This document shows positions 5,274-61,665 of a stretch of 64,000 nucleotides of DNA, in pieces. The position numbers were made by a program, and so were the translations under genes. Under the pieces are notes generated by a model. It did no database searches. It saw nothing but the letters and a program-made list of their open reading frames with translations, and was not told the DNA's origin. Numbering within the stretch: the stretch's first letter is position 1; each line of letters opens with the position of its first letter. The DNA is from a virus, in IMG/VR virus record IMGVR_UViG_3300037424_001643, positions 1 to 64,000 of that record. The stretch is one strand, 5' to 3'.

Positions 5274-5347
5274 CCGCAGATAGTTCAACGGAAGAACACC
5301 GGACTTGTAATCCGGAAACGGCGGTTCGACTCCGTCTCTGCGCTCCA
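5274..5347 (+). tRNA. tRNA-Thr, anticodon UGU, CCA encoded
   Basis: Manual fold into a 74-nt cloverleaf:
- Acceptor CCGCAGA/TCTGCGC, with C1-C72 unpaired.
- D stem GTTC/GAAC with a GG loop.
- Anticodon stem CCGGA/TCCGG with loop CTTGTAA.
- T stem GGCGG/CCGTC with loop TTCGACT.
- Discriminator T followed by CCA. Confidence 0.8.
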
Positions 5348-48579: not shown

Positions 48580-49671
48580 TCAAAAAAGAGCGGTATAGAA
48601 TCGGATAGTGGCCACGTCCAAGGCTTTTGCAACGCCTCCACCGTCTCGGGTTCGGACGGACACGCCGGTCCCCAGAAGGTCGCCGAAGGAGGGTAGATGG
48701 GTAGTGGACGTGTAAACAAGCGTGCCGTTGATGTAGAACCGAACGGCGCTTGCCAGCCGGTCCCACTCCATCGACAGCGCCACAAAAACGGTGGTGCTCA
48801 GGGCAATGCCTGTGTCAACAACGGTCTGAGAGCCGTTGTCCCCGCAAACGATAGTCCAGTTCGCATCCCCGGCCTGCGTCGAGTATCTGAAACCAAAATA
48901 TCGGTGGGGGGAGACGGCGTTCGACGGATTGTCATTTGCCCGCAAGCCCGTCCCCGATAACGCAGCGCCGTTTGCCGCGGAGGCCCAAATGGAACACAGT
49001 GTCGTCTGCACTGGCATGACCAAAAAAGTAACCTTTGACCGGTAGGCTAAATTCAACAGAAGAGTGCTGTTGTTAAAAACTACCGCGGAATTGTCTAGCA
49101 CCGTCGTAGTGAGGCAGCGGTGACTCGGCAGAGTCGTTCCACTTGAGGGGACTTGAAAGGTCGCCCCCGAAGTTCCCCACACGTCGCCGTAGCTAAGGGT
49201 GCCGCCGGAATTAGAACTCCATTGTGCCGACTTGGTTCCCGTCCACCACGAACGGCTCCACGAGGTCACATAATCGACAGAGGAATCTTTGCGTAGAAAA
49301 TCCAGCCGTCCGCCACCGACCGGTAATCCGCTGCCTGCGGCTCCGGTTGCGCCGGTTGCGCCGGTTGCACCCGCTGCTCCGGTTGCGCCGGTTGCGCCGG
49401 TTGCGCCGGTTGCGCCGGTTGCACCCGCTGCTCCGGTTGCCCCCGCTGCTCCGGTTGCGCCGGTTGCGCCGGTTGCTCCTGCGGGACCCGCCGGACCCGA
49501 GGGGCCTTGGAATCCTTGAATGCCCGCGATTCCTTGCGACCCCACCGTGCCGACACGAGTCGAAAGAATTTTCTTGATTCGGAAGCTTCCGTCGGGTTGC
49601 TCGACGGACATGAAACAATATGCACGACTCGGCTGAGTCAATTGCTCGTTGTATTCAGTGACCTTTGCCAT
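48580..49671 (-). CDS. collagen-like repeat fibre protein (paralog A)
   Basis: The ATG is at 49671. The 40-aa N-terminus contains [13 protein letters not shown], followed by 25 G-X-Y triplets (mostly GAT/GAA) and a beta-rich C-terminal domain. Confidence 0.75.
49327..49551 (-). repeat. G-X-Y coding tandem repeat (9-bp GGTTGCGCC-type units on the plus strand)
   Basis: Read directly from the sequence. It encodes aa 41-115 of paralog A. Confidence 0.8.
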
Positions 49672-49672
49672 A

Positions 49673-50746
49673 TCAGATGACAGCCTGTCGAATGGCCATC
49701 TCCGTAATATTGTAGGATTTCGCCGCCGCATTCAAGGTCGTGAGATACACGCCAAAAAAAGCGAGGGACGTAGTCGGTGGGATATTCGCCGACGAGATTG
49801 TCGCCACCAAAACGTTGTCAATGTAGAAATACACCGAACCGATTCCCAAATCCCATTCGATTGCAAACGCTTTGGAGGTCGTCCCAAAAGCGATTCCGGT
49901 GTCCACGAGGGTCTGCACGCCCGCATTTGCGCAAACGGCCTGCCAAGTCGTGTCTCCCGCGTTTGTCGAGAATCGGAACGCACAGTAACTCGTAGCGGCG
50001 GGGGCATCTGACCCGCCCATCGTCGCCCCGCTTCCGGTAGTTACTCCGGTCCAGCAGCGAACATTCGTGTTGCTGTTCCACTGAACGATTGAAAAAAACT
50101 GTGTCCGCGCATTAAACACGTAATACGCTGTCGCACTGTTAGAGACGTGAAATGCCACATTGTTCGCGACTGCACTCGTGTTCGCAATCAGGGATGGAAG
50201 CGTATCTGAGTCAGGAGTCGCATTCGACGAGGACGAAACTGTCCCGGTAAAATTGTCTCCGATGCCGAGCGCTGCCGCGCCCGTCCCATACGACGCGCGC
50301 GATTCTTTGAAATACATCCACTCGTCAGTTTTCCAATCGAAGTCGTAATCCGTGCCAGAGTTCTTTCGGAGCGCTTGTAGCCGGGTTCCACCCGTCGGAA
50401 CTCCTTGGCCCGCGGCTCCGGTTGCGCCGGTTGCGCCAGTAGCGCCGGTTGCGCCAGTAGCGCCGGTTGCGCCAGTAGCGCCTGCGGGACCCGCTGGACC
50501 TGTCGCGCCAGCCGGACCTGCGGGACCCCCTGCGCCCGCCGCGCCTGCGGGACCGGCTGGACCCGCCGCGCCCGCCGCGCCTGCGGGACCTTGCAAACCC
50601 TGCGGACCGGACGCCCCGTGCGCGCCGAGCACGTCCGGACGAATTTTCTTCGTGATGAAGCTCCCGTCGGGCTGTTCAACCGAGACGAACAAAAATCCGA
50701 CTGGTGATGGGTCTGTCTCTTCTGTGTAATCGCTAATGAAGGGCAT
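49673..50746 (-). CDS. collagen-like repeat fibre protein (paralog B)
   Basis: Same layout as paralog A: a 40-aa N-terminus with [13 protein letters not shown], 25 G-X-Y triplets, and a related C-terminal domain ([30 protein letters not shown] versus [30 protein letters not shown]). Confidence 0.75.
50402..50626 (-). repeat. G-X-Y coding tandem repeat
   Basis: It encodes aa 41-115 of paralog B. Confidence 0.8.
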
Positions 50747-50751
50747 AAATC

Positions 50752-50976
50752 TCAGCGTAAATTATCGAAAATGAACCCCCCGGTGAGGTCATCGAGAATC
50801 GCAAACCCGTCTTCATCTTGAAGCACGTCCTGCGACTGATTGTTCCGGACTGGCGCGGGCAACGTCCGACAAAAAAGATGCAACTCTTTCGTCTGCCCGC
50901 CGCTCGGACAACGACCCGAAGTCGGACACCCCGAAAGGTCTCCGTTCACGTCGCGAATAATGGGCAATTGGTGCAT
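50752..50976 (-). CDS. hypothetical protein (74 aa)
   Basis: The ATG at 50976..50974 overlaps the TAA of the upstream fibre gene by 1 nt. The track's longer 51204 start overlaps that gene. Confidence 0.45.
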
Positions 50977-52088
50977 TACGCGAGTTTGACGTAAGTCATC
51001 CGAGAATTCGCAAAAGCGATGTCTTGCGTTGCAGCCGCATTCGACGTCTGCGCATAAAGCTGAATGATATTGTTTGGGGTATTCGTCGTCACCAGCGCAG
51101 TGAGCACAAGCGAATGATACTGAGCCCCGAACGTCATCCGAAAGAACGACTCCGAATTCGTAACGTCCGCCGCCGTCGTCGAATTGAAAAGTTTCAAGTC
51201 CCACTGACGGTCGGCGGCAGAACTGTTCAGCGCACTGATTTGGACCACGAAAAGATACGTGCCCGCGTCCGCGAGGGGGGCTTCCATGTCGGTCACGCCG
51301 AAATCAACTTTGGCATAGGAGGCCGTCATCGTGTAGTCGGTAGAGCCGCCGACAATGGACGAATTCGCACTCGTTGCCGCCGTCCCTGCCGGACCCACCG
51401 GACCCGTTGCGCCGGTCGCGCCAGTTGCGCCGGTCGCGCCTTGATTCCCTTGGTCTCCCTTGGCTCCGGTATTCCCCGTGTCCCCTTTGATGGACAGCCC
51501 GCGCGGACCAGTCGGCAAGACGATTGTTCCGGGAGTAACGACGGCCACCGGGGAGGCGATAAGCTCAAGCAGAGTCGCAAAAACGGTCTCCTGCTGAAAA
51601 ACGTTCGTGATAGAAAGCCATCCCACTCCGGGGACAAAAATCGTTTGCCCCGTCGCCACGACCGTAGTCGGAATCACGTTGAATTGGACTGCGGGCGCGA
51701 CGAGGGTCGGGGCATTAAAAGCTGTCGTTGAAACGGCATAGGCGTTCTTGCCGTTCGTGCCCGCTGCACCTGTGTCGCCCTTGGGGCCGGTAAGCCCGAC
51801 CAAACCGTCTTCAAAGAGGCGAATGAAATAGCACGCCAGACCCTCGTTGTCGCCGCGAGGATTGTTCGGGAGACCGATGTCGAGGTTGCAGGGCAACACC
51901 CAAGTCACAACCCCATTGACCGTGGTCTTGGTGATGGTGCCGAAGAACTGACGGACAAAGTTGTCTAGCTGCGACGGCAGCGTTTCACACGCCGCACTGT
52001 TGGTCGGACACTCGCTGCACGGACTGCAACCGCGATTGTTATTGTCGCAGTCGCCGCACGAGCCGTTGTTACAATTGGAGCAACTCAT
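50976..52088 (-). CDS. collagen-like repeat fibre protein with Cys-rich N-terminus
   Basis: MSCSNCNNGSCGDCDNNNRGCSPCSECPTNSAAC, followed by two G-X-Y segments at aa 98-115 and aa 194-232. Confidence 0.7.
   Translation of the reverse strand: MSCSNCNNGSCGDCDNNNRGCSPCSECPTNSAACETLPSQLDNFVRQFFGTITKTTVNGVVTWVLPCNLDIGLPNNPRGDNEGLACYFIRLFEDGLVGLTGPKGDTGAAGTNGKNAYAVSTTAFNAPTLVAPAVQFNVIPTTVVATGQTIFVPGVGWLSITNVFQQETVFATLLELIASPVAVVTPGTIVLPTGPRGLSIKGDTGNTGAKGDQGNQGATGATGATGATGPVGPAGTAATSANSSIVGGSTDYTMTASYAKVDFGVTDMEAPLADAGTYLFVVQISALNSSAADRQWDLKLFNSTTAADVTNSESFFRMTFGAQYHSLVLTALVTTNTPNNIIQLYAQTSNAAATQDIAFANSRMTYVKLA
51393..51509 (-). repeat. G-X-Y coding repeat (second segment of the third fibre); a shorter one lies at 51744..51797
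   Basis: It encodes [39 protein letters not shown]. Confidence 0.7.
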
Positions 52089-52304: not shown

Positions 52305-53579
52305 TTAGAGTGCGTTAACTGCGGTGACAACGTCTGCGGCGGCGACCGTCGTCCCGGCATCCGTCAAATGGGTCCCATCAGAATAATAGGTAAGGTCATT
52401 CGGGTTTGTCAACAGAGGGTTGACTGCCACATCGACAAGCCCGTCGGCGAACTCCGCGAATCCAGAACGAATTCGCGTGTTGTAGTCGAGGCGCTGCGCC
52501 TCTTGATACGCTGTAAAAGCGGCGCGGGGCAGAGTTGTAAAAACAAGAACTTCCATGCCGTTTTCTCGCACTCGCTGACAATACTCTACGAGGGTCGAAT
52601 AGACTGACGCCGCGCTCCGACCTCCGATGATGTCATTCGTTCCGGCCCAGACCGTGACGATGTTTCGCGCGAATCGGTTGTCTCGATACGGAAGAAGGTC
52701 CGTAGAGAATCGGGGGACGATGTTTTCCACCAGCCGTTCTCCACCGCTCGCCCGAAGGTTCGTTCCCCAAGACGCCTCTCCCAACGAGATGACGACTTTC
52801 TCGCCCCACGTTTGAGAGAGCGAGAGTCCCGCCCCTGCGGTCAGTGAATCGCCTTCAAGAATGAGATTGTTAACAGACAGCCCCAATCGAAACGCCGAAT
52901 AGGCATGAAGTCGGGTCAACTCCAACGCCGTAAGTGCGCGCGTGAAACCCAACATTTCCAGCACTTCGATATTTCCCTGTAGTGCGCCGAGATGCGATGC
53001 CCCCCACGTCATGCCGCCGAAACCCGCCGCTCCGGGGTCACCGCCTTGAACCCGACCCCGATTAACCCGAAAAACCGACGAAGAGCCCGACCAGTGGGAA
53101 GTCAAAAACGCCCACGTATTGACGGTCCAACTCGTCTTCGAGGGGCCAGAAGTGCCTCCCGTTCGCATGAGCACCTGCGGCGTAACGCCCACCTGATGAA
53201 TGAAACCGTCAGTCAATCCGTTGAAGACCCGTCGCCCCGACACCCATGTTACCTGACGAGCCAAAAACAAAGTCGTCGAAGGCTGATTCAGCGTGAACGC
53301 GGCAGACTGAAGATAGTGCCCCGTGGTGGCGACGCCGTTGAACAGTGCGGTGCGATGTCCGTTTACCGTGCCCGAAGATGCGGGCCGACGGGTCGAGGTC
53401 GTCTGATTCAAATGAAAGCCTCCCTGTCGGTCCATCACTCGGGAAAAGGCGTTCGCGGGGTCCCGCGAGTTGCCGCCGTCATCGCTCTTCCACCAGACCA
53501 AAAGGTCGGACACATCAGTCGGAAGGAATCCCTTCTCCGACCGGTTGCTGGCATACTGTCTGGATGTCGCGTAAGACAT
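52305..53579 (-). CDS. LamG/ConA-like lectin domain fused to an SGNH/GDSL esterase
   Basis: SGNH block I is LEGDSLTAG, block III WAGTNDI, and block V SDGTHLT. The N-terminal roughly 230 aa have a laminin-G-like beta-sandwich pattern. Confidence 0.65.
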   Translation of the reverse strand: MSYATSRQYASNRSEKGFLPTDVSDLLVWWKSDDGGNSRDPANAFSRVMDRQGGFHLNQTTSTRRPASSGTVNGHRTALFNGVATTGHYLQSAAFTLNQPSTTLFLARQVTWVSGRRVFNGLTDGFIHQVGVTPQVLMRTGGTSGPSKTSWTVNTWAFLTSHWSGSSSVFRVNRGRVQGGDPGAAGFGGMTWGASHLGALQGNIEVLEMLGFTRALTALELTRLHAYSAFRLGLSVNNLILEGDSLTAGAGLSLSQTWGEKVVISLGEASWGTNLRASGGERLVENIVPRFSTDLLPYRDNRFARNIVTVWAGTNDIIGGRSAASVYSTLVEYCQRVRENGMEVLVFTTLPRAAFTAYQEAQRLDYNTRIRSGFAEFADGLVDVAVNPLLTNPNDLTYYSDGTHLTDAGTTVAAADVVTAVNAL

Positions 53580-53584
53580 GTGAA

Positions 53585-54145
53585 TCAGTCGTAGTCTTCG
53601 ACGAAGGAGAGACGCGGGGTGCCTGAGGCGGAGATGGCGAAAATGGCCGCAGCCGTGTAGAGGTCAACAGACGCTCCGGCGGCGAGAACGTATCCAGTCG
53701 TAGAAGAGACCGTGCCGTCGTGTCCGACGTAGATAACAATGGACCCGTCGATATTCTTGACCGACACCTTACGACGCGTAGCGCGCGAGGCGAGGGCCTG
53801 TGCGGCAGCGGTGGCCGTTGCCACCTGAGACACGGCGAGGTTCGCCGCTCCGGTAAGCTTGCTGACGGTAACCGAATCATTGGCCGCGTCGAGAGTCGTG
53901 GCCGACCGGACCAGAAGAATTCCTTTTTGGTCAGCAATCACCCGTCGGACGGTCCCGATAGTCCCGTCGGCGGGCAACGAATTCGGGTCCACCAATTCTG
54001 CCCCCGCGACCGAAATCTCATCTCCGGGGGGTTGGTCTTGCTGGCTTTCCGCGCTATTCCCGGCGGAAGAATTCAGCAATTGACAAATCTTGAACAGCAG
54101 GTTATTGTCGCTGTCGTTGTGTTTTGGAGAGGGGTCTGCGAACAT
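53585..54145 (-). CDS. hypothetical structural protein
   Basis: 186-aa ORF, the first gene after the capsid terminator. Confidence 0.6.
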   Translation of the reverse strand: MFADPSPKHNDSDNNLLFKICQLLNSSAGNSAESQQDQPPGDEISVAGAELVDPNSLPADGTIGTVRRVIADQKGILLVRSATTLDAANDSVTVSKLTGAANLAVSQVATATAAAQALASRATRRKVSVKNIDGSIVIYVGHDGTVSSTTGYVLAAGASVDLYTAAAIFAISASGTPRLSFVEDYD

Positions 54146-54170
54146 AATCTAGGATGAAAAAATTTGAAAG

Positions 54171-54206
54171 AAAAAAGCCGGGTGAGCGTCTGCTCGCCCA
54201 CCCGGC
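54171..54206 (-). terminator. strong rho-independent terminator after the major capsid gene
   Basis: On the minus strand: GCCGGGTGGGCG-agcaga-CGCTCACCCGGC followed by TTTTTT. Confidence 0.75.
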
Positions 54207-54226
54207 TCGTGACATCTACTCGACGA

Positions 54227-55498
54227 TTAGCAGACGCCAACAGTCGTGAACGCGTCGTTACCAGTGTAGCTGGACGAATCCGGCGCCTCACAGTCGGTCA
54301 GACCGAGGTCAGCGCGGCAGCGTTTGTGCAGAATCGGCACCACGAATTGCGGGCGCTCGGGCTGATAGGCACGGGTAATCTGATACTTGTGCCAGCCGAA
54401 GTCGCCGAAGGTGTTACAGTCGTTGTCGATGTGGTAGTGCCAATCGAGTTCGCCCATGTGCAACTGAGGCGCGAACTTGAAGGACCCTTCGCCGACATAG
54501 CGCTCGGGCACGAGGCGCTTGAAGGAACGGTCAGCGAGCAGGAAGCCGACTTCGTAGTCAGCCGCGAGCCACGCCGGATTCACCTTGGCGTAAGCCGTGT
54601 TCTTGGAAACGTTGCTGACGATGGTGAACGGGTCAACCACGTTCAACAGGCCGGAAGCATTGAAACCCGTCGCGCGGAGCGGGCGCTGGTCGATACCGAA
54701 GGCAATGCCGCGGTAAGCACCGGCAGTTTCCCAGCTATAGCCGCGGAGAGCCTTCTCGCCGAACTGATAGCTTCCGTTGACGAACGAGAGCAGCACGTCC
54801 TTGACGCCCGCTTCGTTGCGGAACGACTCGACGATGTCGCTGGAACCGATGAACCGGAAGTGCATCTGGCCTTCGCCGCCTGCGCTGAACATGTCAGCGA
54901 GGAGCACTTCTTTCAAATGTCGGGCGAGATAGTGAAGGGCCTTGAAGGACATGGGGCCGGTCGGGAGCAGCGGAGCGAACTTGACACCGATGTCCGTCTC
55001 GTTACCGCCCGTGAAGAGCGAGTCGAAATCGTAGCCAGCGACAGCGCTGAACTTGGACGCGGAGCGCAGATACAACTGAGCCCGAATGTCCGCATTGAGA
55101 TACTGGGTGACCAGTTTCTTGAGGGAGTCTTCAGCCGAGAGATAGCTCGACTTGTAGGCTGCATAGCCCTTCTTGACGCAGACGCGAGGACCCTTACCGC
55201 GCTTGCTTTCGAGGCGGGCGGTGAAGTCGATGGCATCAGTCAAGTCCTGAAGACCTTGGGTGCCGCACAAGTCAGTGTCACAGACGAAGGTCGGAATCGC
55301 CAGCGAGTCGCCGGGAGCCGCCTGCATCTGAACAGAAGTGCGGATTTCGTCAGAAACGCCGGACGGAAAAGTTCCGCCCTGAATGACGTTGATGAACGGG
55401 GAGTTGATAGCCAGCGCCTTAGCGATGGAACCAACGAGACGAGAAGTGTCCTTCCGAGAAATATCGGACAGCGTGGACGGCGCGACGCAATCAGCCAT
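54227..55498 (-). CDS. major capsid protein (putative)
   Basis: 423-aa ORF downstream of the scaffold gene, bracketed by a structured leader and a strong terminator. This is a high-expression signature. No motif-level proof. Confidence 0.6.
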   Translation of the reverse strand: MADCVAPSTLSDISRKDTSRLVGSIAKALAINSPFINVIQGGTFPSGVSDEIRTSVQMQAAPGDSLAIPTFVCDTDLCGTQGLQDLTDAIDFTARLESKRGKGPRVCVKKGYAAYKSSYLSAEDSLKKLVTQYLNADIRAQLYLRSASKFSAVAGYDFDSLFTGGNETDIGVKFAPLLPTGPMSFKALHYLARHLKEVLLADMFSAGGEGQMHFRFIGSSDIVESFRNEAGVKDVLLSFVNGSYQFGEKALRGYSWETAGAYRGIAFGIDQRPLRATGFNASGLLNVVDPFTIVSNVSKNTAYAKVNPAWLAADYEVGFLLADRSFKRLVPERYVGEGSFKFAPQLHMGELDWHYHIDNDCNTFGDFGWHKYQITRAYQPERPQFVVPILHKRCRADLGLTDCEAPDSSSYTGNDAFTTVGVC

Positions 55499-55510
55499 GT
55501 TTTTTACAAA

Positions 55511-55528
55511 AAATCCCCTAGGGGATTT
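55511..55528 (-). promoter_or_regulatory. perfect 18-bp palindrome AAATCCCCTAGGGGATTT, 12 nt upstream of the capsid ATG
   Basis: The hairpin is followed by a T-run on the minus strand. A second hairpin, CTGAGGTC-aaac-GACCTCGG, lies at 55535..55554. Confidence 0.45.
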
Positions 55529-55691
55529 AATTTTCTGAGGTCAAACGACCTCGGGTTAAACGGTTTACGAAGCCCACTTGTGGTCTTCACCCATCACCCT
55601 CACGCGCGGCTGAGAGACATAGCGCAGTCCGGCGAGACCAAACCGGAGAATTTACAGTCTCAAAGAATAAGAGAAACCCACCTACCGCACG

Positions 55692-56405
55692 TCAACCAAG
55701 AAAACGGCGGCGAACGTGGTTAATCATGGAATCGTCCTTCACCCCATGCAAGAAGACCGCACCTTGCCGGGACAAATCGTTGAACTGCTCAACCGTGGAA
55801 GTCTTCGTCTGCCACCACGAACGCATCGCCGGGCAGTCAGCCCATCCACGCTTTTTGAATTCGGGAGCAAGGTGGAAGTCCCATCCTTTGTGGGGCGAAC
55901 ATCCACCGACGTCGCGTGCAATCCACCGGAGAAAGGCTTTATCTCCGGACATTAAACAATTGCCGTTCACGTGTTCGCCGGGATATTGGAGGAGCGGGCC
56001 GACGACTTTCTTTTTGGCCCGGTCCCAGAAGTGAGACAACTCCGAAATCCAATTCGGCGCAAGCGGGCAGGCGTCGGCTTCAAACAAAAGCAAAGCCTTG
56101 TAGGGCGGAATTCGTTCCGCCTCTCCGTGACCATAAACCCAGTCTAAAGCCCCGAACGCCATCTCGTTGCACCCGAAAGGCCATAGCGTTCCGCGCCTTC
56201 GGTTTATGGCGTGGTGGACGTTGAACTTTTTCGACACGTATTTTATCGTATCGAGGTCCTGAGAACAGTCGAACCTAGAGAAAAATAAAAAGTCCGCATA
56301 CTCTGAAAACCGGGGCTCGAAATCCGCGATTAGCCGGGCCACCTTCATCGCTTGCTCTTTATCGCCGTCGTAAAACTGGCTAACGAGTAAGATTTTATTT
56401 GACAT
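55692..56405 (-). CDS. putative glycosyltransferase-like protein
   Basis: 237-aa ORF. Features compatible with a GT-A-type enzyme are an N-terminal Rossmann-like ILLVSQFYDGD, an acidic LLFEADACP motif and HVNGNCL. This rests on pattern only. Confidence 0.35.
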   Translation of the reverse strand: MSNKILLVSQFYDGDKEQAMKVARLIADFEPRFSEYADFLFFSRFDCSQDLDTIKYVSKKFNVHHAINRRRGTLWPFGCNEMAFGALDWVYGHGEAERIPPYKALLLFEADACPLAPNWISELSHFWDRAKKKVVGPLLQYPGEHVNGNCLMSGDKAFLRWIARDVGGCSPHKGWDFHLAPEFKKRGWADCPAMRSWWQTKTSTVEQFNDLSRQGAVFLHGVKDDSMINHVRRRFLG

Positions 56406-57009
56406 ACTTGTCCTTCTTGGCGCAGTTCTCCGCTGCGAATAGCGGCTGCAAATTCATCCAGTGAAAACAGATTTTTTGTTGCTCGGGGTCTGTGGAGTCG
56501 AAGCTTGCGCACGGACGAATGTGGTCAATGTGCCAGACGGGGCCGTAATTTTCCCAAGTCATGCCGGGTCGAAATTGGCCTTGTAGGTAGATTTTGAACT
56601 CGGCGATTTCCATACCGAGAAGTGCAAGAGTTCGGGCGGACTTAGATTCTTTCTTAACGCTATGGTGAATTCGAGTCCGAAGATTACTCAAAATCCGAAA
56701 TTCCACTCTCAAGCGACGTCTCTTCGCCTGCTCTCGGTAAAGAGCCCTCTGCCGTTCCGGATTCTCCTTACTCCAATGTTTCGCTTTCTCAATGCGTTCT
56801 TCCCGGTGGTCTCGGTAGTGCGTCGAGTTTAATTCTTTGACTCGTTCGGGGTGCGTCTGTCGCCATTCTCGCAAATACTCCGGGGAGGTCCGTTTCTTCT
56901 CAACCGGACTCTCAATCCCGAGCGCCGCACAAACTTTCCCAAAGCTTCGGGTAAACTTCCTAGCCTCCGGAATCAATTGAGTCTCTCCGTAGCAAACTTT
57001 TCGTCTCAT
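56395..57009 (-). CDS. HNH endonuclease (no AP2 domain)
   Basis: The ATG at 57009 forms an ATGA overlap with the stop of 57006..57872. The C-terminal HNH core is WHIDHIRPCASFDSTDPEQQKICFHWMNLQPLFAAENCAKKDK. Confidence 0.7.
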   Translation of the reverse strand: MRRKVCYGETQLIPEARKFTRSFGKVCAALGIESPVEKKRTSPEYLREWRQTHPERVKELNSTHYRDHREERIEKAKHWSKENPERQRALYREQAKRRRLRVEFRILSNLRTRIHHSVKKESKSARTLALLGMEIAEFKIYLQGQFRPGMTWENYGPVWHIDHIRPCASFDSTDPEQQKICFHWMNLQPLFAAENCAKKDKYVK

Positions 57010-57872
57010 GGTAGAATCGGATAAACGCAATTTCCGACGTGACCCGCCCAGCAACCGAGGTCCACGTAAGGTTGATGCCCGGACTGCGCGGCGCGGCGAC
57101 AGAAGATGACGTCTTCCCCGACTCCAAGATTGGACACGGCGCGTGCCTTGGCGTCGCCCGCATACCAAATTTTCAACGCCTCCGCAATCCGGCCCGGTTC
57201 TGACCTCAACGTGTCTTCGAGAACGTCGCGAATCTGGTCGAATGCTTTCTTCAAATCGTGCTCGGACGACGTGAACCACTGACCCGTTCCGTTGTTGGCG
57301 GCACGAGACAGGTGTGGAAAATTCTCTTCAATGGCGAGAAAAACGCTTCGATGAATCAGCAACCCGCCGGTTCCAATCCACTGCGTCGGACGAATCTCGT
57401 TGCGAGGCCCGTTGCGACGTAGCTCCAAATCAGACGCCTTGCCCTCGGCGAAAATCGGCAGGCCCTCGCGCCAACGACCGAAGTAGGTGACACCAATCAG
57501 AGTCTTGCCGTGTGACTGAAGCCGGTCGATGGTGTGCATCCCGGCATAGAAGTCGGTAAACTTTTTGAAGCCCGTATTTCCGCGAAACCAGTTGGCGTCG
57601 CCGAACGGAAGAATCATGTCGTCGTCCACCGTGAACATCCACTCCAAAGACGAGTTCACGAACTGAGTCGCCAGTTTGTTCCGCGAGTGCGCGATAAACG
57701 CGTCTCCGAACCCGAGAGAGATTCCCATTTTAGTCCGGTCCGCGAGTGCCATCATGCAGAACGTAGTCAACGGCGAGGCCGTTTTATACCACGGAAGGCA
57801 AAGCAAGAGTTTCTTACCCTCGCGAAGAACGCTTGGCGGCGCTACGTCCGGAATATCGACCGTGAAGTCCAT
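57006..57872 (-). CDS. GT-A fold (family 2-like) glycosyltransferase
   Basis: LLLCLPWYK...AHSRNKLATQF...EWMFTVDDDMILP carries the DxD-type motif, together with GEDVIFCRRA. Confidence 0.5.
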   Translation of the reverse strand: MDFTVDIPDVAPPSVLREGKKLLLCLPWYKTASPLTTFCMMALADRTKMGISLGFGDAFIAHSRNKLATQFVNSSLEWMFTVDDDMILPFGDANWFRGNTGFKKFTDFYAGMHTIDRLQSHGKTLIGVTYFGRWREGLPIFAEGKASDLELRRNGPRNEIRPTQWIGTGGLLIHRSVFLAIEENFPHLSRAANNGTGQWFTSSEHDLKKAFDQIRDVLEDTLRSEPGRIAEALKIWYAGDAKARAVSNLGVGEDVIFCRRAAQSGHQPYVDLGCWAGHVGNCVYPILP

Positions 57873-59206
57873 TACTCGCGGTTAGCCGCTTCAGCTTCGA
57901 CTTCCTTGCGAATTCGGTCGAGCGCACTATCGCCCGGCTCGTCAAAGCTGCTCTTCGTCGTAACCTTCGGCGCTCCGCCTGCCGGAGCCGAAGAACCCCC
58001 GAGTCGTCCCGTTGAAGACTTCTGAATGTCCGCGATGAACTTCTCCTTCTCGGCGAGAGTGGCCTTGAGCTTGTCCGTCTCCGCCTTGTGCGACGCCTTC
58101 ACTTGAGCGAGGTCCGCCTCGCTCTTCAGCATCTTTGCGTATCCCGCAACGAGGACCGCGTGCATCTCCGGAGAATGGTCATTCAAAGCCTCCTTGACAT
58201 CGGCCTGAATTTCTTTCACGCGCGCGTTATGCGCCTCAATTTTGACCTTGTCGGCGGGCTTCGTGTCCTTGGTGATTTCCTGCTCTTTGAGCCACGGCAA
58301 TTGACCCGACAAATCCGAAAAATGCTTGCTCGCAATTTCCTTTCGCGAGCTTTCGGACTTCGAGGACTCCGCCTGACGGTTCTTCAAGAACTCCACGGAA
58401 TTCTTCTTCGCGGCTCCGATGGCCTTCTCTTTCGCATCCGCAAGCGATTCATTCTCCACCAGCTTAACGTCGAGAAAACGACGCACGTCTGCGGGAACCT
58501 TCTCCCCGAGCGCCGTCCAGTTGACCTGACTCACTCCGATTTCCTTCACTCGCTTGATGGACGCCTCGTCAAATCCAGCCTTCTGTAGCCGCAAATAAAT
58601 CGCGTCCTCATTCGCCGTGATTTGCGCGTCGAATTTCTTGAATTCCGGGTCCGATTCCACGTCGAGGCCCCGGCGAAAACTACGAAGCTCTTCCAATTCC
58701 GCTTCAATTTCCTTGGACGCCTTTCCGCTCTTGGCGATTTCGATGGCCTCGTTCGCGGACTTGAGGTCGGCGGTCAACTTCTCGACCGTGCCTGAGAGTT
58801 CGGTAATCTTCGTGCGCGCCAGTTCCTTGACTTTGGTGAAGGACTCGACCGTCTTCGGCTTGACGTGCGGCGGCAACTCGACGGAGTCGAGTTCATCCGT
58901 TTTCGCAGCCGTGGCCGCTTTCGCAGCCTCGTCCGCCTTGGCTTTCGCGGCAGCGTCGTCGGTGTTCACCGCGGCGGCAGCATCCGCTTCAGACTTGGCT
59001 TTGGCTTCCAAATCCGCCTTGGCTTTTTCGTCCGCCTTCTGCTGTTCTAGCGCCGCCTTTTCGTCGTCGCTTACCGGCGTCTGGTTTTCGTCTCCGCCCC
59101 CCTCCGCCTTGAGCAAATCGTCGAGAGCGTTGGAGGATTCAGCGGAAGCTTCAACAGAGCCCACTAGCTCTGCGTTTCCGGGCAATACTTGTATTTCGTC
59201 GGGCAT
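57872..59206 (-). CDS. scaffolding protein (putative)
   Basis: 444 aa, Ala/Lys/Glu-rich with predicted coiled coil. It lies between the portal and capsid genes. Confidence 0.6.
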   Translation of the reverse strand: MPDEIQVLPGNAELVGSVEASAESSNALDDLLKAEGGGDENQTPVSDDEKAALEQQKADEKAKADLEAKAKSEADAAAAVNTDDAAAKAKADEAAKAATAAKTDELDSVELPPHVKPKTVESFTKVKELARTKITELSGTVEKLTADLKSANEAIEIAKSGKASKEIEAELEELRSFRRGLDVESDPEFKKFDAQITANEDAIYLRLQKAGFDEASIKRVKEIGVSQVNWTALGEKVPADVRRFLDVKLVENESLADAKEKAIGAAKKNSVEFLKNRQAESSKSESSRKEIASKHFSDLSGQLPWLKEQEITKDTKPADKVKIEAHNARVKEIQADVKEALNDHSPEMHAVLVAGYAKMLKSEADLAQVKASHKAETDKLKATLAEKEKFIADIQKSSTGRLGGSSAPAGGAPKVTTKSSFDEPGDSALDRIRKEVEAEAANRE

Positions 59207-59209
59207 AGG

Positions 59210-59536
59210 TCAGTTTTTCGTCGGGGGAAGAGTCGGATTTTTTCCGTCTCCCCATTTGGTATCGTCGTCAAGCGAAGGATAATTCTCCTCCGGTTGTTCT
59301 TGCTCTGGCTCAGTGTGAACCAAACTCGTGAGAAACGCCAGTGCGTCCTCGTATCCCTTGTGCTCCCCCGAGCGAACCAAGGTCTCGTTCACATGCGAGC
59401 CATCAAACAAGACAGGTGTGTTAAGTTGACAGAGTGTCAACATCTTGGTTCCGGTATCGGAGGTCAAAAAATCCCGGAGCGCCTTCGCTTCCACCGAAGT
59501 CCATTTCGGCGCATCTGAAAAAAGCGTGACGCTCAC
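59210..59536 (-). CDS. hypothetical head-module protein
   Basis: 108-aa ORF coupled to the portal stop. Confidence 0.6.
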   Translation of the reverse strand: MSVTLFSDAPKWTSVEAKALRDFLTSDTGTKMLTLCQLNTPVLFDGSHVNETLVRSGEHKGYEDALAFLTSLVHTEPEQEQPEENYPSLDDDTKWGDGKNPTLPPTKN

Positions 59537-61665
59537 ATTGCACCCCCCGCCGTCGGCTGCGTCGGCTGTTCCCCGCTAATCTCGCTCGCGACCTCGTCGG
59601 CCTGCTGCGCGGCGAGCGCCGCCTGCTGCTGCTCGACTTCGTCGAGTTGTTGAATCGCCCCCTTGATTTGATTCAAAAGGTCTCCCACCGGCTTCAGTTC
59701 GTCCTTGTTTCCGCCTGCGGCGAGTGCCGCATCAAGATGCCCCTGCGCATGAATGTAAATCGCCTTCAGCGTTCCGAGTCCCGCCGGGTCTTGTGCCGCC
59801 ACCGGCGCAGCCTGTTCCATCGCGGGCATCAAAACACTCAAATGCACCTGATGGTTGTCACGCGGAGAAATCGGAACCTGCGCACCCTGACCGACAATCA
59901 GTAGAAGCTCCAACTGCTGAAGTCGTGTCTGCTCTGCCGTGACTGTCGGGTCTTCCTCCGGAAGCAGCACCGCATCGGCGAACTCCTCGTCGATTTGCGC
60001 CGTGAGTTTCCGACGTTCAAGCTCCCGCTGGTCATACAACGGATTTCCCCGGCCTTCCGTGGCCGCGATGACCACGGCCTGCCGTTCCAATTCGGTGTAG
60101 TCCTTGACTGTCTCGGCCACCGGTCGCTTGGAAATCAAATCAAGCTCCTCGCGAGTCATCACCTTGAGCAAACGCTCCTGCATCTCCTTGGCGTCTTCGT
60201 CCGCGGTCTTGGGGTCGCACATGCGTCGTTGCATGGTGCCCACGTATGACGCGAACTGAGTGAGAAAACGCCCAATGATATTGTCTCGCCCCTCTTCCTC
60301 GCGGCCCGCGAGCAGATTCACGGCAGCGGCAGTCACGCGCTCGCCTTCAAGGGCGCGCGGCGTCACGGCTCCCGCCATCTGGTCGAGCAAGGAGGTCAGA
60401 AATTGGTCCAGCGTCAGAAAAGGCTCGACTGCGGCATCGAGTTTCATCTGGTTAATTGTGAACCCGTTTTCAATGAGAATCGCATTCCCGACCACCGACA
60501 TCTTGAACTTCTTAATCTGCTTCGGGTCGCCCTGAATGATGACCTTCCCCGCGAGATTCAGCCGGTCAACAACTTCGTTGCGACTCTTGTCAAGCATCGA
60601 CGCCATGTTGTAGATTTCACGGCCAATCCCCTTCGAGCCATGCAGCTTTCCGTTGCCCTGCTGGAAAGAAAAGAACGCGACCGCGTCTTTCATCGTCGGA
60701 TACTGTTCCTCCCGCTCAAAGAGCACCGTCTTTTTGTCGAGCGCGGGGTCGGCCTTCGTGCTGGCGCTTTCCGTCTTCTCCAAAATGATGTAATGCGAAA
60801 TCTTCCCGGAAATCTCCTGTGCGAGCAGATGCCACACCGATACTACCAGCGCGCCTGCCTCGTGAGAGAGCCCCACGTTGCATTCCCGAATCAAGTCCTC
60901 GTAAACCCTCTCCCAGCCCATCTCTTTCGAGCGCCGGTCTTCCGGCATGGCGTTGTTGATGGCGTCGAGAGTGTTCTGGATATTCCAACCCACCGTCTTC
61001 GCCGCTTCGGTCTCTTCCACCAGCGCAAAGAGTTCGTGGACGAGGAAAGTCTCGCGCATCGCGACGATTTGAGCCGAGTCAGGAAGCTGACCGGTGCCCG
61101 TCGGAACGAAGAAGCTATCCTGCCGAAAATGCTTTGGAAAATAGTGAAATTCATCCAGCCACGAGCAACAAGTGAACCCGAAAAGCGCATTCTCTTGCGC
61201 GATTTCCGAAATGAGATTGTTCCAGCCGGGGCGTGCGCGCAATGTGCTCGTGATTTCTCGCCGGAACGCTTCCGTCTTCACGTCCGCGCCGGGGACATCT
61301 TCCGGGAAGGCGGAGTTCGTCAAAAACTTCGCCGCATCCACCGCCTTTGAAAATCGTGGCGCGACTTTATCAATGAGCACCGGAAGCGGCTTGGTGGTAA
61401 AGTTGGACTTCCATCCAACTCCCTCCGCCTTCAACTGCTCAGTGGAATAGGGTTTCTCTGAGTTGTATTTCGCCATGATGCGCGCATTCTTGAGGTTACG
61501 CTCGCGCGCAGCCTCCTGAAGTGACCGCACGATGTTCCGCGCCTGCGTTACCGACGAAATTGCGTGCCGCTTCGGCTTCCCCTTGGGAGAGAGTTCAGGT
61601 GTGTTTACCGACCCGGTGGTGCTACCGGAGTGGTCTAGCGAAGAATCTTCCGTAGAAAGTGGCAT
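59533..61665 (-). CDS. portal protein (putative)
   Basis: 710-aa ORF two small genes downstream of TerL and upstream of the scaffold gene. Size and order are typical of a portal. Confidence 0.6.
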   Translation of the reverse strand: MPLSTEDSSLDHSGSTTGSVNTPELSPKGKPKRHAISSVTQARNIVRSLQEAARERNLKNARIMAKYNSEKPYSTEQLKAEGVGWKSNFTTKPLPVLIDKVAPRFSKAVDAAKFLTNSAFPEDVPGADVKTEAFRREITSTLRARPGWNNLISEIAQENALFGFTCCSWLDEFHYFPKHFRQDSFFVPTGTGQLPDSAQIVAMRETFLVHELFALVEETEAAKTVGWNIQNTLDAINNAMPEDRRSKEMGWERVYEDLIRECNVGLSHEAGALVVSVWHLLAQEISGKISHYIILEKTESASTKADPALDKKTVLFEREEQYPTMKDAVAFFSFQQGNGKLHGSKGIGREIYNMASMLDKSRNEVVDRLNLAGKVIIQGDPKQIKKFKMSVVGNAILIENGFTINQMKLDAAVEPFLTLDQFLTSLLDQMAGAVTPRALEGERVTAAAVNLLAGREEEGRDNIIGRFLTQFASYVGTMQRRMCDPKTADEDAKEMQERLLKVMTREELDLISKRPVAETVKDYTELERQAVVIAATEGRGNPLYDQRELERRKLTAQIDEEFADAVLLPEEDPTVTAEQTRLQQLELLLIVGQGAQVPISPRDNHQVHLSVLMPAMEQAAPVAAQDPAGLGTLKAIYIHAQGHLDAALAAGGNKDELKPVGDLLNQIKGAIQQLDEVEQQQAALAAQQADEVASEISGEQPTQPTAGGAM

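What the first reader, a model, noticed from the sequence alone, without database searches (positions are those of the whole stretch)
55692..57872. Glycosyltransferase-HNH-glycosyltransferase cassette between scaffold and major capsid genes
Scaffold and capsid genes are normally adjacent. Here three genes separate them:
- A GT-A-like glycosyltransferase at 57006..57872, with FTVDDDMILP and GEDVIFCRRA.
- An HNH endonuclease at 56395..57009.
- A second putative glycosyltransferase-like ORF at 55692..56405.

All three are translationally coupled by start/stop overlaps. A structured 193-nt leader before the capsid gene follows them.

The position suggests co-expression with head proteins, and therefore glycosylation of the capsid or other virion proteins. 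This has been reported only for a few actinobacteriophages. Alternatively the cassette could modify a host surface glycan.

The HNH gene suggests the cassette may have arrived as, or with, a mobile element.
Basis: inference. Interest (0 to 1): 0.7.

Follow-up and report, generated by a model that had tools for sequence, protein, structure and literature searches.

The report
Glycosylation genes inside phage head operon
Two sugar-transferring enzymes sit between the scaffold gene and the putative capsid gene of an uncultivated ~72-kb phage, an arrangement shared, often with extra sugar-making genes, by every related phage examined, which suggests these viruses decorate their own particles with sugars; the nuclease gene between the two enzymes is a later selfish insertion.

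Summary
Three translationally coupled genes lie on the minus strand between a scaffold-like gene and the putative major capsid gene (MCP).

ORF A (57006-57872) and ORF C (55692-56405) match no Pfam, NCBIfam or PDB sequence. Both give high-confidence AlphaFold models (pLDDT 91.5 and 97.2) whose Foldseek hits are GT-A glycosyltransferases, and both have invariant DxD-type motifs.

The pair is not an insert. In 49 of 49 unique loci retrieved through the MCP alone, scaffold and ORF A lie upstream of the MCP; 46 of 49 also have ORF C.

Relatives carry up to 4.8 kb more at this spot:
- GDP-mannose 4,6-dehydratase and SDR epimerase/reductases
- sulfotransferases and a pyruvyl transferase
- extra GT-A paralogues

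Methyltransferases appear in more distant relatives.

Only the HNH gene (56395-57009) is sporadic and low in GC. It sits exactly at the ORF A/ORF C junction, as expected of a homing endonuclease.

Best reading (about 0.55): a late-expressed, cytoplasmic island that glycosylates a virion protein. Candidate acceptors are the MCP's hypervariable Ser/Thr-rich C-terminal tail and the Gly-X-Thr collagen-like fibres.

DNA glycosylation is less likely, because no base-hydroxymethylation genes were detected anywhere in the genome. MCP and portal identities rest on gene order and indirect features only.

The parts
57872..59206 (-). Scaffold-like protein (444 aa, rich in Ala, Glu and Lys). Its stop codon overlaps the ORF A start.
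   Evidence: ORF and translation. Homologues occupy the same position in all relatives at 26-45% identity. No family hit, so the function is inferred from position and composition.
57006..57872 (-). ORF A ('GTA'): soluble GT-A-fold glycosyltransferase, 288 aa, with an invariant D83-D84-D85 (DxD) and E253-D254. It is the universal member of the island.
   Evidence: AF2 pLDDT 91.5. Foldseek against PDB: LH3 glycosyltransferase domain 2.4e-7, STIV A197 3.5e-7, COLGALT1, mimivirus R699, SpsA. Foldseek against BFVD: uncultured-phage GT-A proteins down to 1.2e-15. Invariant columns in 59 sequences. No transmembrane segment. 492 homologues.
56395..57009 (-). Free-standing HNH-type (endonuclease VII-like) homing endonuclease gene, 204 aa, inserted exactly at the ORF A/ORF C junction.
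   Evidence: phrog_1035 E = 9.5e-8. H-N-N motif in the translation. Relative L001 has ORF A and ORF C joined directly by ATGA. GC 0.50 and GC3 0.56, against GC3 0.63-0.75 in neighbouring genes. Same-slot homologues only in L026 (36% identity, E = 4e-32) and L099.
55692..56405 (-). ORF C ('GTC'): second soluble GT-A-fold glycosyltransferase, 237 aa, with an invariant E109-x-D111 and H220-G-x-K223.
   Evidence: AF2 pLDDT 97.2. Foldseek against PDB: GfsA 6e-8, B3GalT5, B3GNT2, xylosyltransferase 1 (TMq up to 0.69), glycogenin. Invariant columns in 56 sequences. No transmembrane segment.
55499..55691 (-). 193-nt leader of the putative MCP gene. It contains the box TTTAACCCG (55560-55552), hairpin 1 GAGGTC-GTTT-GACCTC (55552-55537), and hairpin 2 AAATCCCC-TA-GGGGATTT (55528-55511) followed by a T-run.
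   Evidence: Sequence. Fold z = -2.1. Palindrome listed. No Rfam match. Relatives carry a hairpin or pseudoknot at the equivalent place.
54227..55498 (-). Putative major capsid protein, 423 aa. The body is highly conserved. The C-terminal tail (about 54230-54310) is hypervariable and rich in Ser/Thr, and is a candidate acceptor.
   Evidence: 65-88% identity across 856+ homologues. Tail pattern ...C-x5-6-SS[YF][ST]G[AS]D[ST]F[TA]T[VI]GVC plus 0-45 further residues. Highest GC3, 0.75. No family or PDB hit, so the identity is positional.
54175..54208 (-). Strong intrinsic-terminator-like hairpin (14-bp stem, 10 G-C pairs, T-run) that closes the scaffold-to-MCP transcription unit.
   Evidence: It is the longest stem of the 12 terminator-like sites listed in 54000-59600 (12 found, against a shuffle expectation of 8.5 +/- 2.5).
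48580..52088 (-). Three collagen-repeat (Gly-X-Thr-rich) fibre genes downstream of the MCP. They are alternative candidate acceptors.
   Evidence: Pfam Collagen, E = 3e-8 to 5e-13. About 12% Thr, against 4-6% in other genes. Collagen-like G-X-T genes occur downstream of the MCP in 20 of 21 relatives with at least 3.5 kb of downstream sequence.

Best explanation
The interval is the minimal version of a conserved virion-glycosylation island built into the head-morphogenesis operon of a large, uncultivated family of ~70-75-kb phages.

Shown:
- ORF A and ORF C are soluble GT-A-fold glycosyltransferases with intact, invariant catalytic-type motifs.
- They are translationally coupled to the scaffold gene.
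- No strong terminator-like site was seen between the scaffold gene and the strong one after the putative MCP gene.

Inferred:
- They are made late, in the cytoplasm, together with the head proteins. They transfer sugars from host nucleotide-sugar pools onto Ser/Thr (O-linked) of a virion protein before or during assembly.
- ORF A is found in every relative and always sits next to the scaffold gene, so it probably adds the first sugar. ORF C, nearly universal, probably extends it.
- Relatives elaborate the glycan with further GT-A paralogues, their own GDP-6-deoxyhexose pathway, and sulfo-, pyruvyl- and methyl-transferases. This makes the spot a diversification locus comparable to an O-antigen cluster.
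- The favoured acceptor is the hypervariable Ser/Thr-rich C-terminal tail of the MCP (about 0.35 of the total). The Gly-X-Thr collagen-like fibres come next (about 0.2).

The HNH gene is a separate element. It is a free-standing homing endonuclease that inserted precisely between the two glycosyltransferase genes and restored start/stop coupling on both sides.
For: Fold and motifs:
- AF2 pLDDT 91.5 and 97.2. All significant Foldseek hits are GT-A transferases.
- Invariant DDD and ED in 59 ORF A sequences, and E-x-D and H-x-x-K in 56 ORF C sequences.
- No transmembrane segment.

Coupling and transcription unit.

Conserved synteny:
- The order scaffold, ORF A, ORF C, then 0-4.8 kb, then MCP holds in 83 ORF A-anchored loci.
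- Without circularity, it holds in 49 of 49 (ORF A) and 46 of 49 (ORF C) unique MCP-anchored loci.
- The linkage persists in phages whose MCP is only 43%, 36% and 21% identical (ORF A or ORF C homologues at E = 1e-41, 1.6e-42 and 1.3e-24). It is lost in one at 18%, where the scaffold-like gene abuts the MCP.

Content of the variable island in relatives:
- GDP_Man_Dehyd, E = 6.7e-136; SDR Epimerase, E = 1e-53 to 1e-58
- Sulfotransfer_3, E = 2e-28; PS_pyruv_trans
- Family c2, a distant ORF C paralogue with NDSDS and HxVK motifs (hhalign E = 4.4e-4, probability only 33.5%, so tentative)
- FkbM-type and Methyltransf_24 methyltransferases in distant relatives
- This phage itself encodes a PS_pyruv_trans gene just outside the window.

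Acceptor candidates:
- MCP C-terminal tail. Its Ser+Thr count correlates weakly with island size (rho = 0.36, p = 0.012, not corrected for phylogeny).
- G-X-T collagen-like fibres.

Precedent: mycobacteriophages Che8, Corndog and Myrna glycosylate the C-termini of capsid and tail-tube subunits with their own glycosyltransferases (as summarised in PMC12619734, PMC12363180 and PMC11256854).

HNH as an insertion.
Against: - No biochemical evidence exists. The acceptor is not identified by any computation here.
- The MCP and portal labels are positional only.
- Conserved gene order could simply be inherited rather than functionally required.
- ORF A carries the generic R...DDD...ED motif that DNA-glycosylating phage GT-A enzymes also share (bioRxiv 10.1101/2023.12.21.572611).
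- Phages that have ORF A only (L024, L031) have the same MCP tail motif and the same collagen-like fibres. Presence/absence patterns therefore do not discriminate between acceptors.
- TM-scores of ORF A to solved glycosyltransferases are modest (0.41-0.45). No donor or acceptor specificity can be read from them.
Confidence: 0.55

Rival explanations
1. The enzymes and timing are the same, but the acceptor is the set of collagen-like fibres. Thr in Gly-X-Thr repeats would be O-glycosylated, as in the Bacillus exosporium protein BclA or in glycosylated mimivirus collagen. The capsid protein would not be the target. This is a sub-variant of virion glycosylation.
For: - ORF A's best solved-structure matches include collagen glycosyltransferases (LH3 2.4e-7; COLGALT1 1.8e-5; mimivirus R699 6e-5) and a Megavirus procollagen-lysine dioxygenase/glycosyltransferase (4.3e-8).
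- Three collagen-repeat genes lie 2-6 kb downstream, with GAT, GPT and GTN repeats and about 12% Thr.
- Such genes occur in 20 of 21 relatives with enough downstream sequence.
- BclA-type collagen-like proteins are known glycoproteins (PMC8968730).
Against: - The island is coupled to the scaffold gene and abuts the MCP gene, not the fibre genes.
- Distant relative L087 keeps an ORF C homologue and a methyltransferase upstream of the MCP, but shows no collagen-like gene in the 1.8 kb downstream.
- LH3 and COLGALT1 act on hydroxylysine, and no lysyl hydroxylase was detected in the genome.
- The TM-scores (0.41-0.45) are those of a generic GT-A match.
Confidence: 0.2
2. The glycosyltransferases hypermodify the phage DNA. 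They would add sugars to hydroxymethylated pyrimidines to evade restriction, as in T4 or the 5mYOX- and ThyS-linked GT-A/GT-B systems.
For: - DNA glycosylation is the classic role of phage glycosyltransferases.
- DNA-modifying phage GT-A enzymes share an R...DDD...EDY/F motif pattern that ORF A also has (R64, D83-85, E253-D254).
- Some such gene clusters lie near structural genes.
Against: - No C5-methyltransferase, TET/JBP-like dioxygenase or thymidylate-synthase-like hydroxymethylase was detected. This covers my Pfam scans of the window ORFs and the precomputed Pfam hits for the two Logan contigs of the same phage (L090 and L091), which include the ~7 kb outside the window.
- The relatives' islands add sulfotransferases, pyruvyl and methyl transferases and a GDP-6-deoxyhexose pathway. 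These are typical of protein or polysaccharide glycans and are not known on DNA.
- Tight, deep linkage to the MCP gene has no rationale for a DNA enzyme.
Confidence: 0.1
3. The enzymes act on a host glycan or a small molecule. Examples are remodelling LPS, capsule or teichoic acid precursors to block superinfection or to stop progeny sticking to debris. They would not act on the virion.
For: - Seroconverting phage glycosyltransferases are well known.
- Foldseek hits include teichoic-acid and LPS enzymes (TarS, TarP, LgtC).
- The phage also carries an SGNH/GDSL esterase and a GNAT acetyltransferase in its structural module.
Against: - Neither enzyme has a membrane-spanning segment or signal-like N-terminus.
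- The family looks lytic: only 2 MAG hits among 185,579 species genomes, although a serine recombinase (Resolvase) gene is present.
- The genes sit in the late head operon, where surface conversion would come too late to matter.
Confidence: 0.08
4. The HNH protein is not selfish. It would be a packaging-associated HNH that assists the terminase, as in HK97 gp74, and so a functional part of the head module.
For: It lies in the morphogenesis operon, is translationally coupled on both sides, and has an intact nuclease motif.
Against: - It is absent from most relatives. A homologue occurs in 4 of 83 ORF A-anchored loci, one of them a 24-residue fragment, and in 6 of 49 MCP-anchored loci.
- Where present it occupies different slots: between ORF A and ORF C, before the scaffold gene, before the portal gene, before the MCP, or 7 kb downstream.
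- It has the lowest GC in the region.
- Other endonuclease VII/HNH genes recur in the same island in 11 loci.
Confidence: 0.04

Closest known systems
Mycobacteriophage virion glycosylation (Che8, Corndog, Myrna; Freeman et al. 2023, Cell Host Microbe, as summarised in PMC12619734, PMC12363180 and PMC11256854)
   Same: Phage-encoded soluble glycosyltransferases. In the mycobacteriophages the glycans sit on the C-termini of capsid and tail-tube subunits. Here the putative MCP has a variable Ser/Thr-rich C-terminal tail. A cluster-F mycobacteriophage protein (Ardmore gp87) is a weak structural match to ORF A (E = 4.5e-5, TM 0.44).
   Different: There is no detectable sequence homology. In cluster F1 phages the glycosyltransferase genes lie near the 3' end of the genome (PMC11256854); here they are embedded between the scaffold and MCP genes and translationally coupled. 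The host is unknown and the family is uncultivated. Relatives add nucleotide-sugar, sulfo-, pyruvyl- and methyl-transferase genes. Glycosylation is not demonstrated here.
Capsid glycosylation by virus-encoded enzymes in chloroviruses, giant viruses and the archaeal virus STIV (A197, PDB 2c0n)
   Same: Virus-encoded GT-A enzymes. STIV A197 is the second-best solved-structure match to ORF A (3.5e-7). A PBCV-1 protein also appears among the matches.
   Different: Those viruses have double-jelly-roll capsids and infect eukaryotes or archaea. This is a tailed-phage-like genome. Structural similarity is at the level of the general GT-A fold only.
Collagen glycosyltransferases (human LH3 glycosyltransferase domain, COLGALT1; mimivirus R699/L230-type)
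   Same: They are the best solved-structure matches to ORF A. The phage encodes three collagen-repeat proteins.
   Different: Those enzymes glycosylate hydroxylysine. No hydroxylase was detected here, and the repeats are Gly-X-Thr. TM-scores are 0.41-0.45 with 10-12% identity.
DNA-hypermodifying phage GT-A enzymes (Pyle et al., bioRxiv 10.1101/2023.12.21.572611)
   Same: GT-A fold and an R...DDD...ED motif pattern. Some of those clusters lie near structural genes.
   Different: Those enzymes are defined by linkage to C5-methyltransferase plus 5mYOX, or to ThyS homologues. None was detected in this genome.
Free-standing HNH/endonuclease VII-type homing endonuclease genes of phages (for example the T4 mob and seg genes; my own knowledge, not checked in a paper here)
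   Same: A small nuclease ORF inserted between conserved genes, sporadic among close relatives, and compositionally deviant.
   Different: No Pfam HNH hit, only a PHROG match and a sequence motif. The target site and any homing activity are untested.

Membership tests
GT-A fold glycosyltransferases (ORF A) | Single Rossmann-like alpha/beta/alpha nucleotide-sugar-binding domain (GT-A fold) | tested here: met
   AF2 pLDDT 91.5, pTM 0.85. The top 50 PDB hits are GT-A glycosyltransferases and nucleotide-sugar pyrophosphorylases of the same fold. The named BFVD hits are almost all glycosyltransferases; many others are unnamed.
GT-A fold glycosyltransferases (ORF A) | DxD motif for metal and NDP-sugar binding, plus an acidic catalytic-base motif (xED) | tested here: met
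   D83 and D85 are invariant and D84 is at least 90% conserved. E253-D254 are invariant in 59 homologues. Their catalytic roles are inferred.
Curated GT2-type sequence family (Pfam Glycos_transf_2 / NCBIfam) (ORF A) | Significant match to the family HMM | tested here: not met
   No Pfam or NCBIfam family at E <= 0.1. The only match is phrog_1574, of unknown function. ORF A is therefore not filed as a GT2 member.
GT-A fold glycosyltransferases (ORF C) | GT-A fold | tested here: met
   AF2 pLDDT 97.2, pTM 0.93. 338 PDB hits at E <= 1e-3, and all 50 listed are glycosyltransferases. TMq is up to 0.69, to xylosyltransferase 1.
GT-A fold glycosyltransferases (ORF C) | DxD motif | tested here: inconclusive
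   An E109-A-D111 variant (ExD) is invariant in 56 homologues, together with H220 and K223. Its position in the fold relative to canonical DxD motifs was not mapped residue by residue.
Phage virion-glycosylation systems (Che8/Corndog/Myrna type) | Glycans covalently attached to capsid or tail proteins | not testable with these tools
   Requires mass spectrometry or glycan staining of virions.
Phage virion-glycosylation systems (Che8/Corndog/Myrna type) | Structural subunit with a C-terminal region that can carry the glycan | tested here: inconclusive
   The putative MCP has a hypervariable Ser/Thr-rich C-terminal tail. Its surface exposure and use as an acceptor are unknown.
Phage virion-glycosylation systems (Che8/Corndog/Myrna type) | Homology to the characterised glycosyltransferases (Che8 gp110, Corndog gp38) | not tested
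   Only an indirect weak structural hit to Mycobacterium phage Ardmore gp87 (E = 4.5e-5). tblastn of ORF A against 50,697 phage records found nothing.
DNA-glycosylating phage systems (T4 AGT/BGT; 5mYOX- or ThyS-linked glycosyltransferases) | Genome encodes an enzyme that makes the hydroxymethyl-pyrimidine acceptor (C5-methyltransferase plus TET-like dioxygenase, or a ThyA-like hydroxymethylase) | tested here: not met
   No such Pfam family was found in my scans of the window ORFs. None appears among the precomputed Pfam hits for two contigs of the same phage that cover part of the window and the ~7 kb outside it. Highly divergent enzymes could be missed.
Seroconversion glycosyltransferases (Gtr-type) | Membrane-embedded enzymes that act on undecaprenyl-linked or periplasmic substrates | tested here: not met
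   The maximum 19-residue Kyte-Doolittle hydropathy is 0.96 for ORF A and 0.81 for ORF C, far below the value of a transmembrane helix.
Free-standing HNH homing endonucleases | HNH (beta-beta-alpha-metal) nuclease motif | tested here: inconclusive
   An H...N...N motif is present. PHROG endonuclease VII, E = 9.5e-8. No Pfam HNH hit at E <= 0.1. No structure prediction was run.
Free-standing HNH homing endonucleases | Sporadic presence among close relatives, at the boundary of conserved genes, with deviant composition | tested here: met
   No homologue in 79 of 83 and 43 of 49 loci. Where present, the slots vary. L001 has a direct ORF A/ORF C junction. GC is 0.50, against 0.53-0.59 in neighbouring genes.

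The most novel reading that the evidence does not exclude
Virion glycosylation is a family-wide, ancestral trait of an abundant group of uncultivated environmental phages, not a curiosity of a few actinobacteriophages. It would be encoded by a hypervariable island locked inside the head operon between the scaffold and capsid genes. The island would behave like a viral 'O-antigen locus'. A universal priming glycosyltransferase (ORF A) is paired with interchangeable extension enzymes, a GDP-6-deoxyhexose pathway, and sulfation, pyruvylation and methylation modules. Together these would give each lineage a different capsid or fibre glycan coat. The two glycosyltransferase families belong to no Pfam or NCBIfam family.
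Probability: 0.35. Interest if true: 0.8.

Novelty: new variant of a known kind. Interest (0 to 1): 0.6.

Why it matters
Self-glycosylation of phage particles was shown only recently, and only in a few mycobacteriophages.

If this island does the same, it extends the phenomenon to a large environmental phage family: 492 ORF A and 856 MCP homologue clusters in public data. It would also show that the glycan machinery can be hard-wired into the head-assembly operon and diversified gene by gene.

That would bear on several questions: phage stability, adhesion, predation and immune recognition; how phage 'serotypes' evolve; and how phages might be engineered with defined glycan coats.

The finding also supplies two uncharacterised GT-A families with clear catalytic motifs, a clean natural example of a homing-endonuclease insertion, and a covarying RNA element upstream of the capsid gene in relatives.

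Tried and rejected
Searches that found nothing:
- Pfam, NCBIfam and PDB sequence searches of ORF A and ORF C, alone and as profiles, gave nothing meaningful.
- tblastn of the MCP and of ORF A against 50,697 cultured-phage records gave no match.
- Attempts to prove MCP and portal identity all failed: PDB profile searches with close and with very broad alignments, PHROGs on 19 family members and on 10 distant relatives, and a 5.8-billion-protein search that returned only 'hypothetical protein' names.
The repeat found 208 relatives but no annotation.
- The Freeman et al. 2023 paper itself is not held, so it is cited through papers that summarise it.
- A look-up of the terminase failed because the gene runs off the end of the window.
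- Rfam has no match in 54000-59600.

Ideas rejected:
- Host assignment. The GTDB species genomes gave only two MAG contigs (a Peribacteraceae bin and a Rhodoferax bin), probably mis-binned phage DNA.
- The box TTTAACCCG as a repeated phage promoter. It is not enriched in the window: 9 matches with up to 1 mismatch, against 14.3 expected.
- ORF A and ORF C as paralogues of each other. hhalign shows no relationship (E = 0.47).
- Using presence or absence of ORF C, or island size, to choose between the MCP tail and the fibres as acceptor. Both features are present in all variants.

I did not run the count of structure pairs on the leader. Any alignment I could build would have been fitted to the structure I had already seen, so I used shuffle controls instead.

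Full report
**What is there**

On the minus strand the window carries a phage structural module.

| Coordinates | Gene | Basis |
|---|---|---|
| 62556 to past the window end | large terminase (true product about 630 aa) | phrog_5713 E = 4.3e-6; Terminase_6C; length |
| 59533-61665 | portal-sized protein, 710 aa | position only |
| 59210-59536 | 108-aa ORF | position only |
| 57872-59206 | scaffold-like protein, 444 aa, rich in Ala/Glu/Lys | position and composition |
| 57006-57872 | ORF A, 288 aa | see below |
| 56395-57009 | HNH-type ORF, 204 aa | see below |
| 55692-56405 | ORF C, 237 aa | see below |
| 55499-55691 | 193-nt gap (leader) | |
| 54227-55498 | putative major capsid protein (MCP), 423 aa | position and indirect features |
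| 54208-54175 | terminator-like site with the longest stem in the region | |

Downstream of these lie a 186-aa protein, an SGNH/GDSL hydrolase, three collagen-repeat proteins, tail and internal-virion proteins, and a 2422-aa protein.

**Are the flanking ORFs glycosyltransferases?**

Sequence methods say nothing. There is no Pfam, NCBIfam or PDB match, alone or as profiles. ORF A matches only a PHROG of unknown function.

With alignments of 59 and 56 metagenomic homologues, AlphaFold2 gives confident models:
- ORF A: pLDDT 91.5.
- ORF C: pLDDT 97.2.

ORF A hits in Foldseek are GT-A transferases:
- the glycosyltransferase domain of lysyl hydroxylase 3 (2.4e-7)
- STIV A197 (3.5e-7)
- COLGALT1, mimivirus R699 and SpsA
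- among viral models, uncultured-phage GT-A proteins down to 1.2e-15, a Megavirus collagen-modifying enzyme, and a mycobacteriophage protein

ORF C hits GfsA, B3GalT5, B3GNT2, xylosyltransferase 1 (TMq up to 0.69) and glycogenin, among 338 hits at E <= 1e-3.

Catalytic-type motifs are invariant. ORF A has D83-D84-D85 and E253-D254. ORF C has E109-x-D111 and H220/K223.

Neither protein has a hydrophobic segment that could span a membrane. The two are not detectably related to each other.

The fold assignment is therefore solid. Neither protein can be placed in a curated glycosyltransferase family.

**Is it an insert?**

No. Loci were retrieved in two ways.

- Through ORF A: 80 IMG/VR loci out of 366 confirmed, plus three from assemblies. 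Every one shows the order portal, small ORF, scaffold, ORF A, ORF C, a variable stretch, then MCP.
- Through the MCP alone, to avoid circularity. Among 49 unique loci with at least 6 kb upstream, 49 have scaffold plus ORF A and 46 also have ORF C.

The distance from the end of ORF A to the MCP start ranges from about 200 nt to 4.8 kb.

The extra genes form recurring families. Representatives are:
- GDP-mannose 4,6-dehydratase (E = 6.7e-136)
- SDR epimerase/reductases (E about 1e-53 to 1e-58)
- sulfotransferases (E = 2e-28)
- a polysaccharide pyruvyl transferase
- endonuclease VII genes
- a 33-member family that is probably a distant GT-A paralogue of ORF C, sharing the NDSDS and HxVK motifs (hhalign E = 4.4e-4, probability only 33.5%)

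The linkage is deep. ORF A or ORF C homologues, with FkbM-type or Methyltransf_24 methyltransferases in two of the three, still sit just upstream of MCPs that are only 43%, 36% and 21% identical to this one. One relative at 18% has the scaffold-like gene directly abutting the MCP.

The phage in the window has the minimal island. It does encode a pyruvyl transferase just outside the window's left end.

**The HNH gene**

In relative L001 the ORF A stop and the ORF C start share ATGA. In the window, the HNH ORF sits exactly there and has re-created overlaps at both ends.

It has the lowest GC in the 50-64 kb region (0.49-0.51; gene GC3 0.56 against 0.63-0.75 in neighbours).

Homologues occur in only 4 of 83 loci, one of them a 24-residue fragment, and in 6 of 49 loci. 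They occupy different slots:
- the same slot in L026 (36% identity, E = 4e-32) and L099
- before the scaffold gene, before the portal gene, before the MCP, or about 7 kb downstream

This is the signature of a free-standing homing endonuclease. It is not a packaging HNH, and it is not evidence that the cassette is mobile.

**What the island most likely does**

Shown:
- two soluble, catalytically intact-looking GT-A enzymes
- translational coupling to the scaffold gene
- no strong terminator-like site between the scaffold gene and the strong one after the MCP gene
- family-wide conservation of the position
- accessory enzymes typical of glycan synthesis and decoration

Inferred: the enzymes are made late, alongside the head proteins, and O-glycosylate a virion protein in the cytoplasm. 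ORF A would act as the universal priming enzyme and ORF C as the first extender. In this phage the nucleotide sugars would come from the host.

There are two credible acceptors.

1. **The MCP tail.** The body of the putative MCP is 65-88% identical across 856+ homologues. After a conserved ...ADLGL.C, it ends in a hypervariable Ser/Thr-rich tail, SS[YF][ST]G[AS]D[ST]F[TA]T[VI]GVC, followed by 0-45 variable residues. This parallels the C-terminal glycosylation reported for mycobacteriophage capsid and tail-tube subunits (PMC12619734; PMC12363180).
2. **The collagen-like fibres.** Their Gly-X-Thr repeats (about 12% Thr) are present in 20 of 21 relatives with enough downstream sequence. They recall the glycosylated BclA (PMC8968730) and fit ORF A's best structural matches to collagen glycosyltransferases.

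I could not discriminate between the two. ORF A-only phages keep both features.

**Rivals**

DNA glycosylation deserves weight. DNA-modifying phage GT-A enzymes share the generic R...DDD...ED pattern, and some lie near structural genes.

However, no C5-methyltransferase, TET-like dioxygenase or ThyA-like hydroxymethylase was detected. This covers my scans of the window and the precomputed annotations of two contigs of the same phage, which include the 7 kb outside the window. Sulfo-, pyruvyl- and methyl-transferases are also not known on DNA glycans.

Host-glycan conversion is disfavoured by three things: the absence of membrane segments, the late-operon position, and the family's near absence from bacterial genomes.

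**The leader**

The 193-nt gap folds only modestly better than shuffles (z = -2.1) and has no Rfam match.

Relatives nevertheless keep a structured element at the same place. In the subset of close relatives that share the box, an (A)ACC(C)G motif is followed by a hairpin. In many others there is an H-type pseudoknot ending 10-30 nt before the start codon, followed by an AGAAAGG-like ribosome-binding sequence.

A perfect 4+5-bp interleaved pattern at that position occurs in 21 of 51 unique leaders. Dinucleotide shuffles give 2.3 +/- 1.6, with a maximum of 8 in 300 shuffles. The second stem has 15 different sequences, which means many compensatory changes.

The window has two plain hairpins instead. 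The function of the element is open: mRNA 5'-end stabilisation, attenuation of read-through from the enzyme genes, or translational control.

**Verdict**

The glycosyltransferase assignment is confirmed by fold. The 'mobile cassette' idea is refuted, except for the HNH gene itself.

Virion glycosylation is the best-supported function, at about 0.55 for any virion protein, but it is unproven and the acceptor is unresolved.

Relative to known systems this is a new variant of phage and viral self-glycosylation. It has an operon-embedded, family-wide, modular island, and its two GT-A families belong to no Pfam or NCBIfam family.

Noticed in passing
Relatives, 10-60 nt upstream of the MCP start (for example L002:13370-13423, L014, L020, L033, L042, L047, L052, L060, L061, L073, L077). 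The equivalent region in the window is 55499-55560.: A covarying H-type pseudoknot (S1 about CCGG/CCGG; S2 GAGAC/GTCTC, GAGGC/GCCTC, GGGAC/GTCCC, GAAGC/GCTTC and others) lies just before the capsid gene's ribosome-binding site. It occurs in 21 of 51 unique leaders, against 2.3 +/- 1.6 in dinucleotide shuffles, with 15 distinct S2 sequences. There is no Rfam family for it. Several close relatives that share the TTTAACCCG box, and the window itself, have hairpins after the box instead.
   Followed up: partly
L090:6509-7291, the same phage in another assembly. This maps to about 627 nt left of the window start through window position 155, on the minus strand.: A 260-aa polysaccharide pyruvyl transferase gene (Pfam PS_pyruv_trans, unmarked hit) lies just outside the window. 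The same enzyme family sits inside the scaffold-MCP island of some relatives (L002, L014, L072). The phage's glycan toolkit may therefore be larger than the two glycosyltransferases.
   Followed up: partly
window 48580-52088 (-), 52305-53579 (-) and 43343-43801 (-): Three tandem collagen-repeat genes carry GAT, GDT and GNT repeats and about 12% Thr. They are preceded by a protein with an SGNH/GDSL esterase domain. A GNAT acetyltransferase is embedded among the tail genes. These are probably fibres and carbohydrate-active virion components.
   Followed up: partly
window 54227-55498 (-): The putative MCP has eight invariant cysteines (C4, C73, C78, C107, C361, C394, C403, plus a near-terminal GVC) across relatives that are 64-88% identical. 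This is unusual for a cytoplasmically assembled capsid protein and hints at disulfide or metal cross-links.
   Followed up: no
window 28812-29495 (+): A phage-encoded sigma-70-family factor (regions 2 and 4) lies at the end of the replication module. It may drive late transcription of the structural operon.
   Followed up: no
window 15206-16291 (+). A second HNH_3 hit and an AP2 hit are among the ORFs of alignment A4, with coordinates not resolved. In relatives: 11 endonuclease VII ORFs within the scaffold-to-MCP interval, usually just upstream of the MCP (for example L033:11874-12356).: Several further HNH, AP2 and endonuclease VII homing-type genes occur in this phage and in the same island in relatives. 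The neighbourhood of the capsid gene appears to be a hot-spot for selfish nucleases.
   Followed up: partly
window 5274-5347 (+): There is a single tRNA-Thr (anticodon UGU). The collagen-like fibre genes are about twice as Thr-rich as other genes and use ACG often. A link between the two is speculative.
   Followed up: partly
window 32946-40214 (-): A 2422-aa protein with a C-terminal DUF7178 lies at the end of the structural module. It may be an internal or ejected virion protein. The window's right end cuts the large terminase gene, and the genome appears circularly permuted across the window ends.
   Followed up: no
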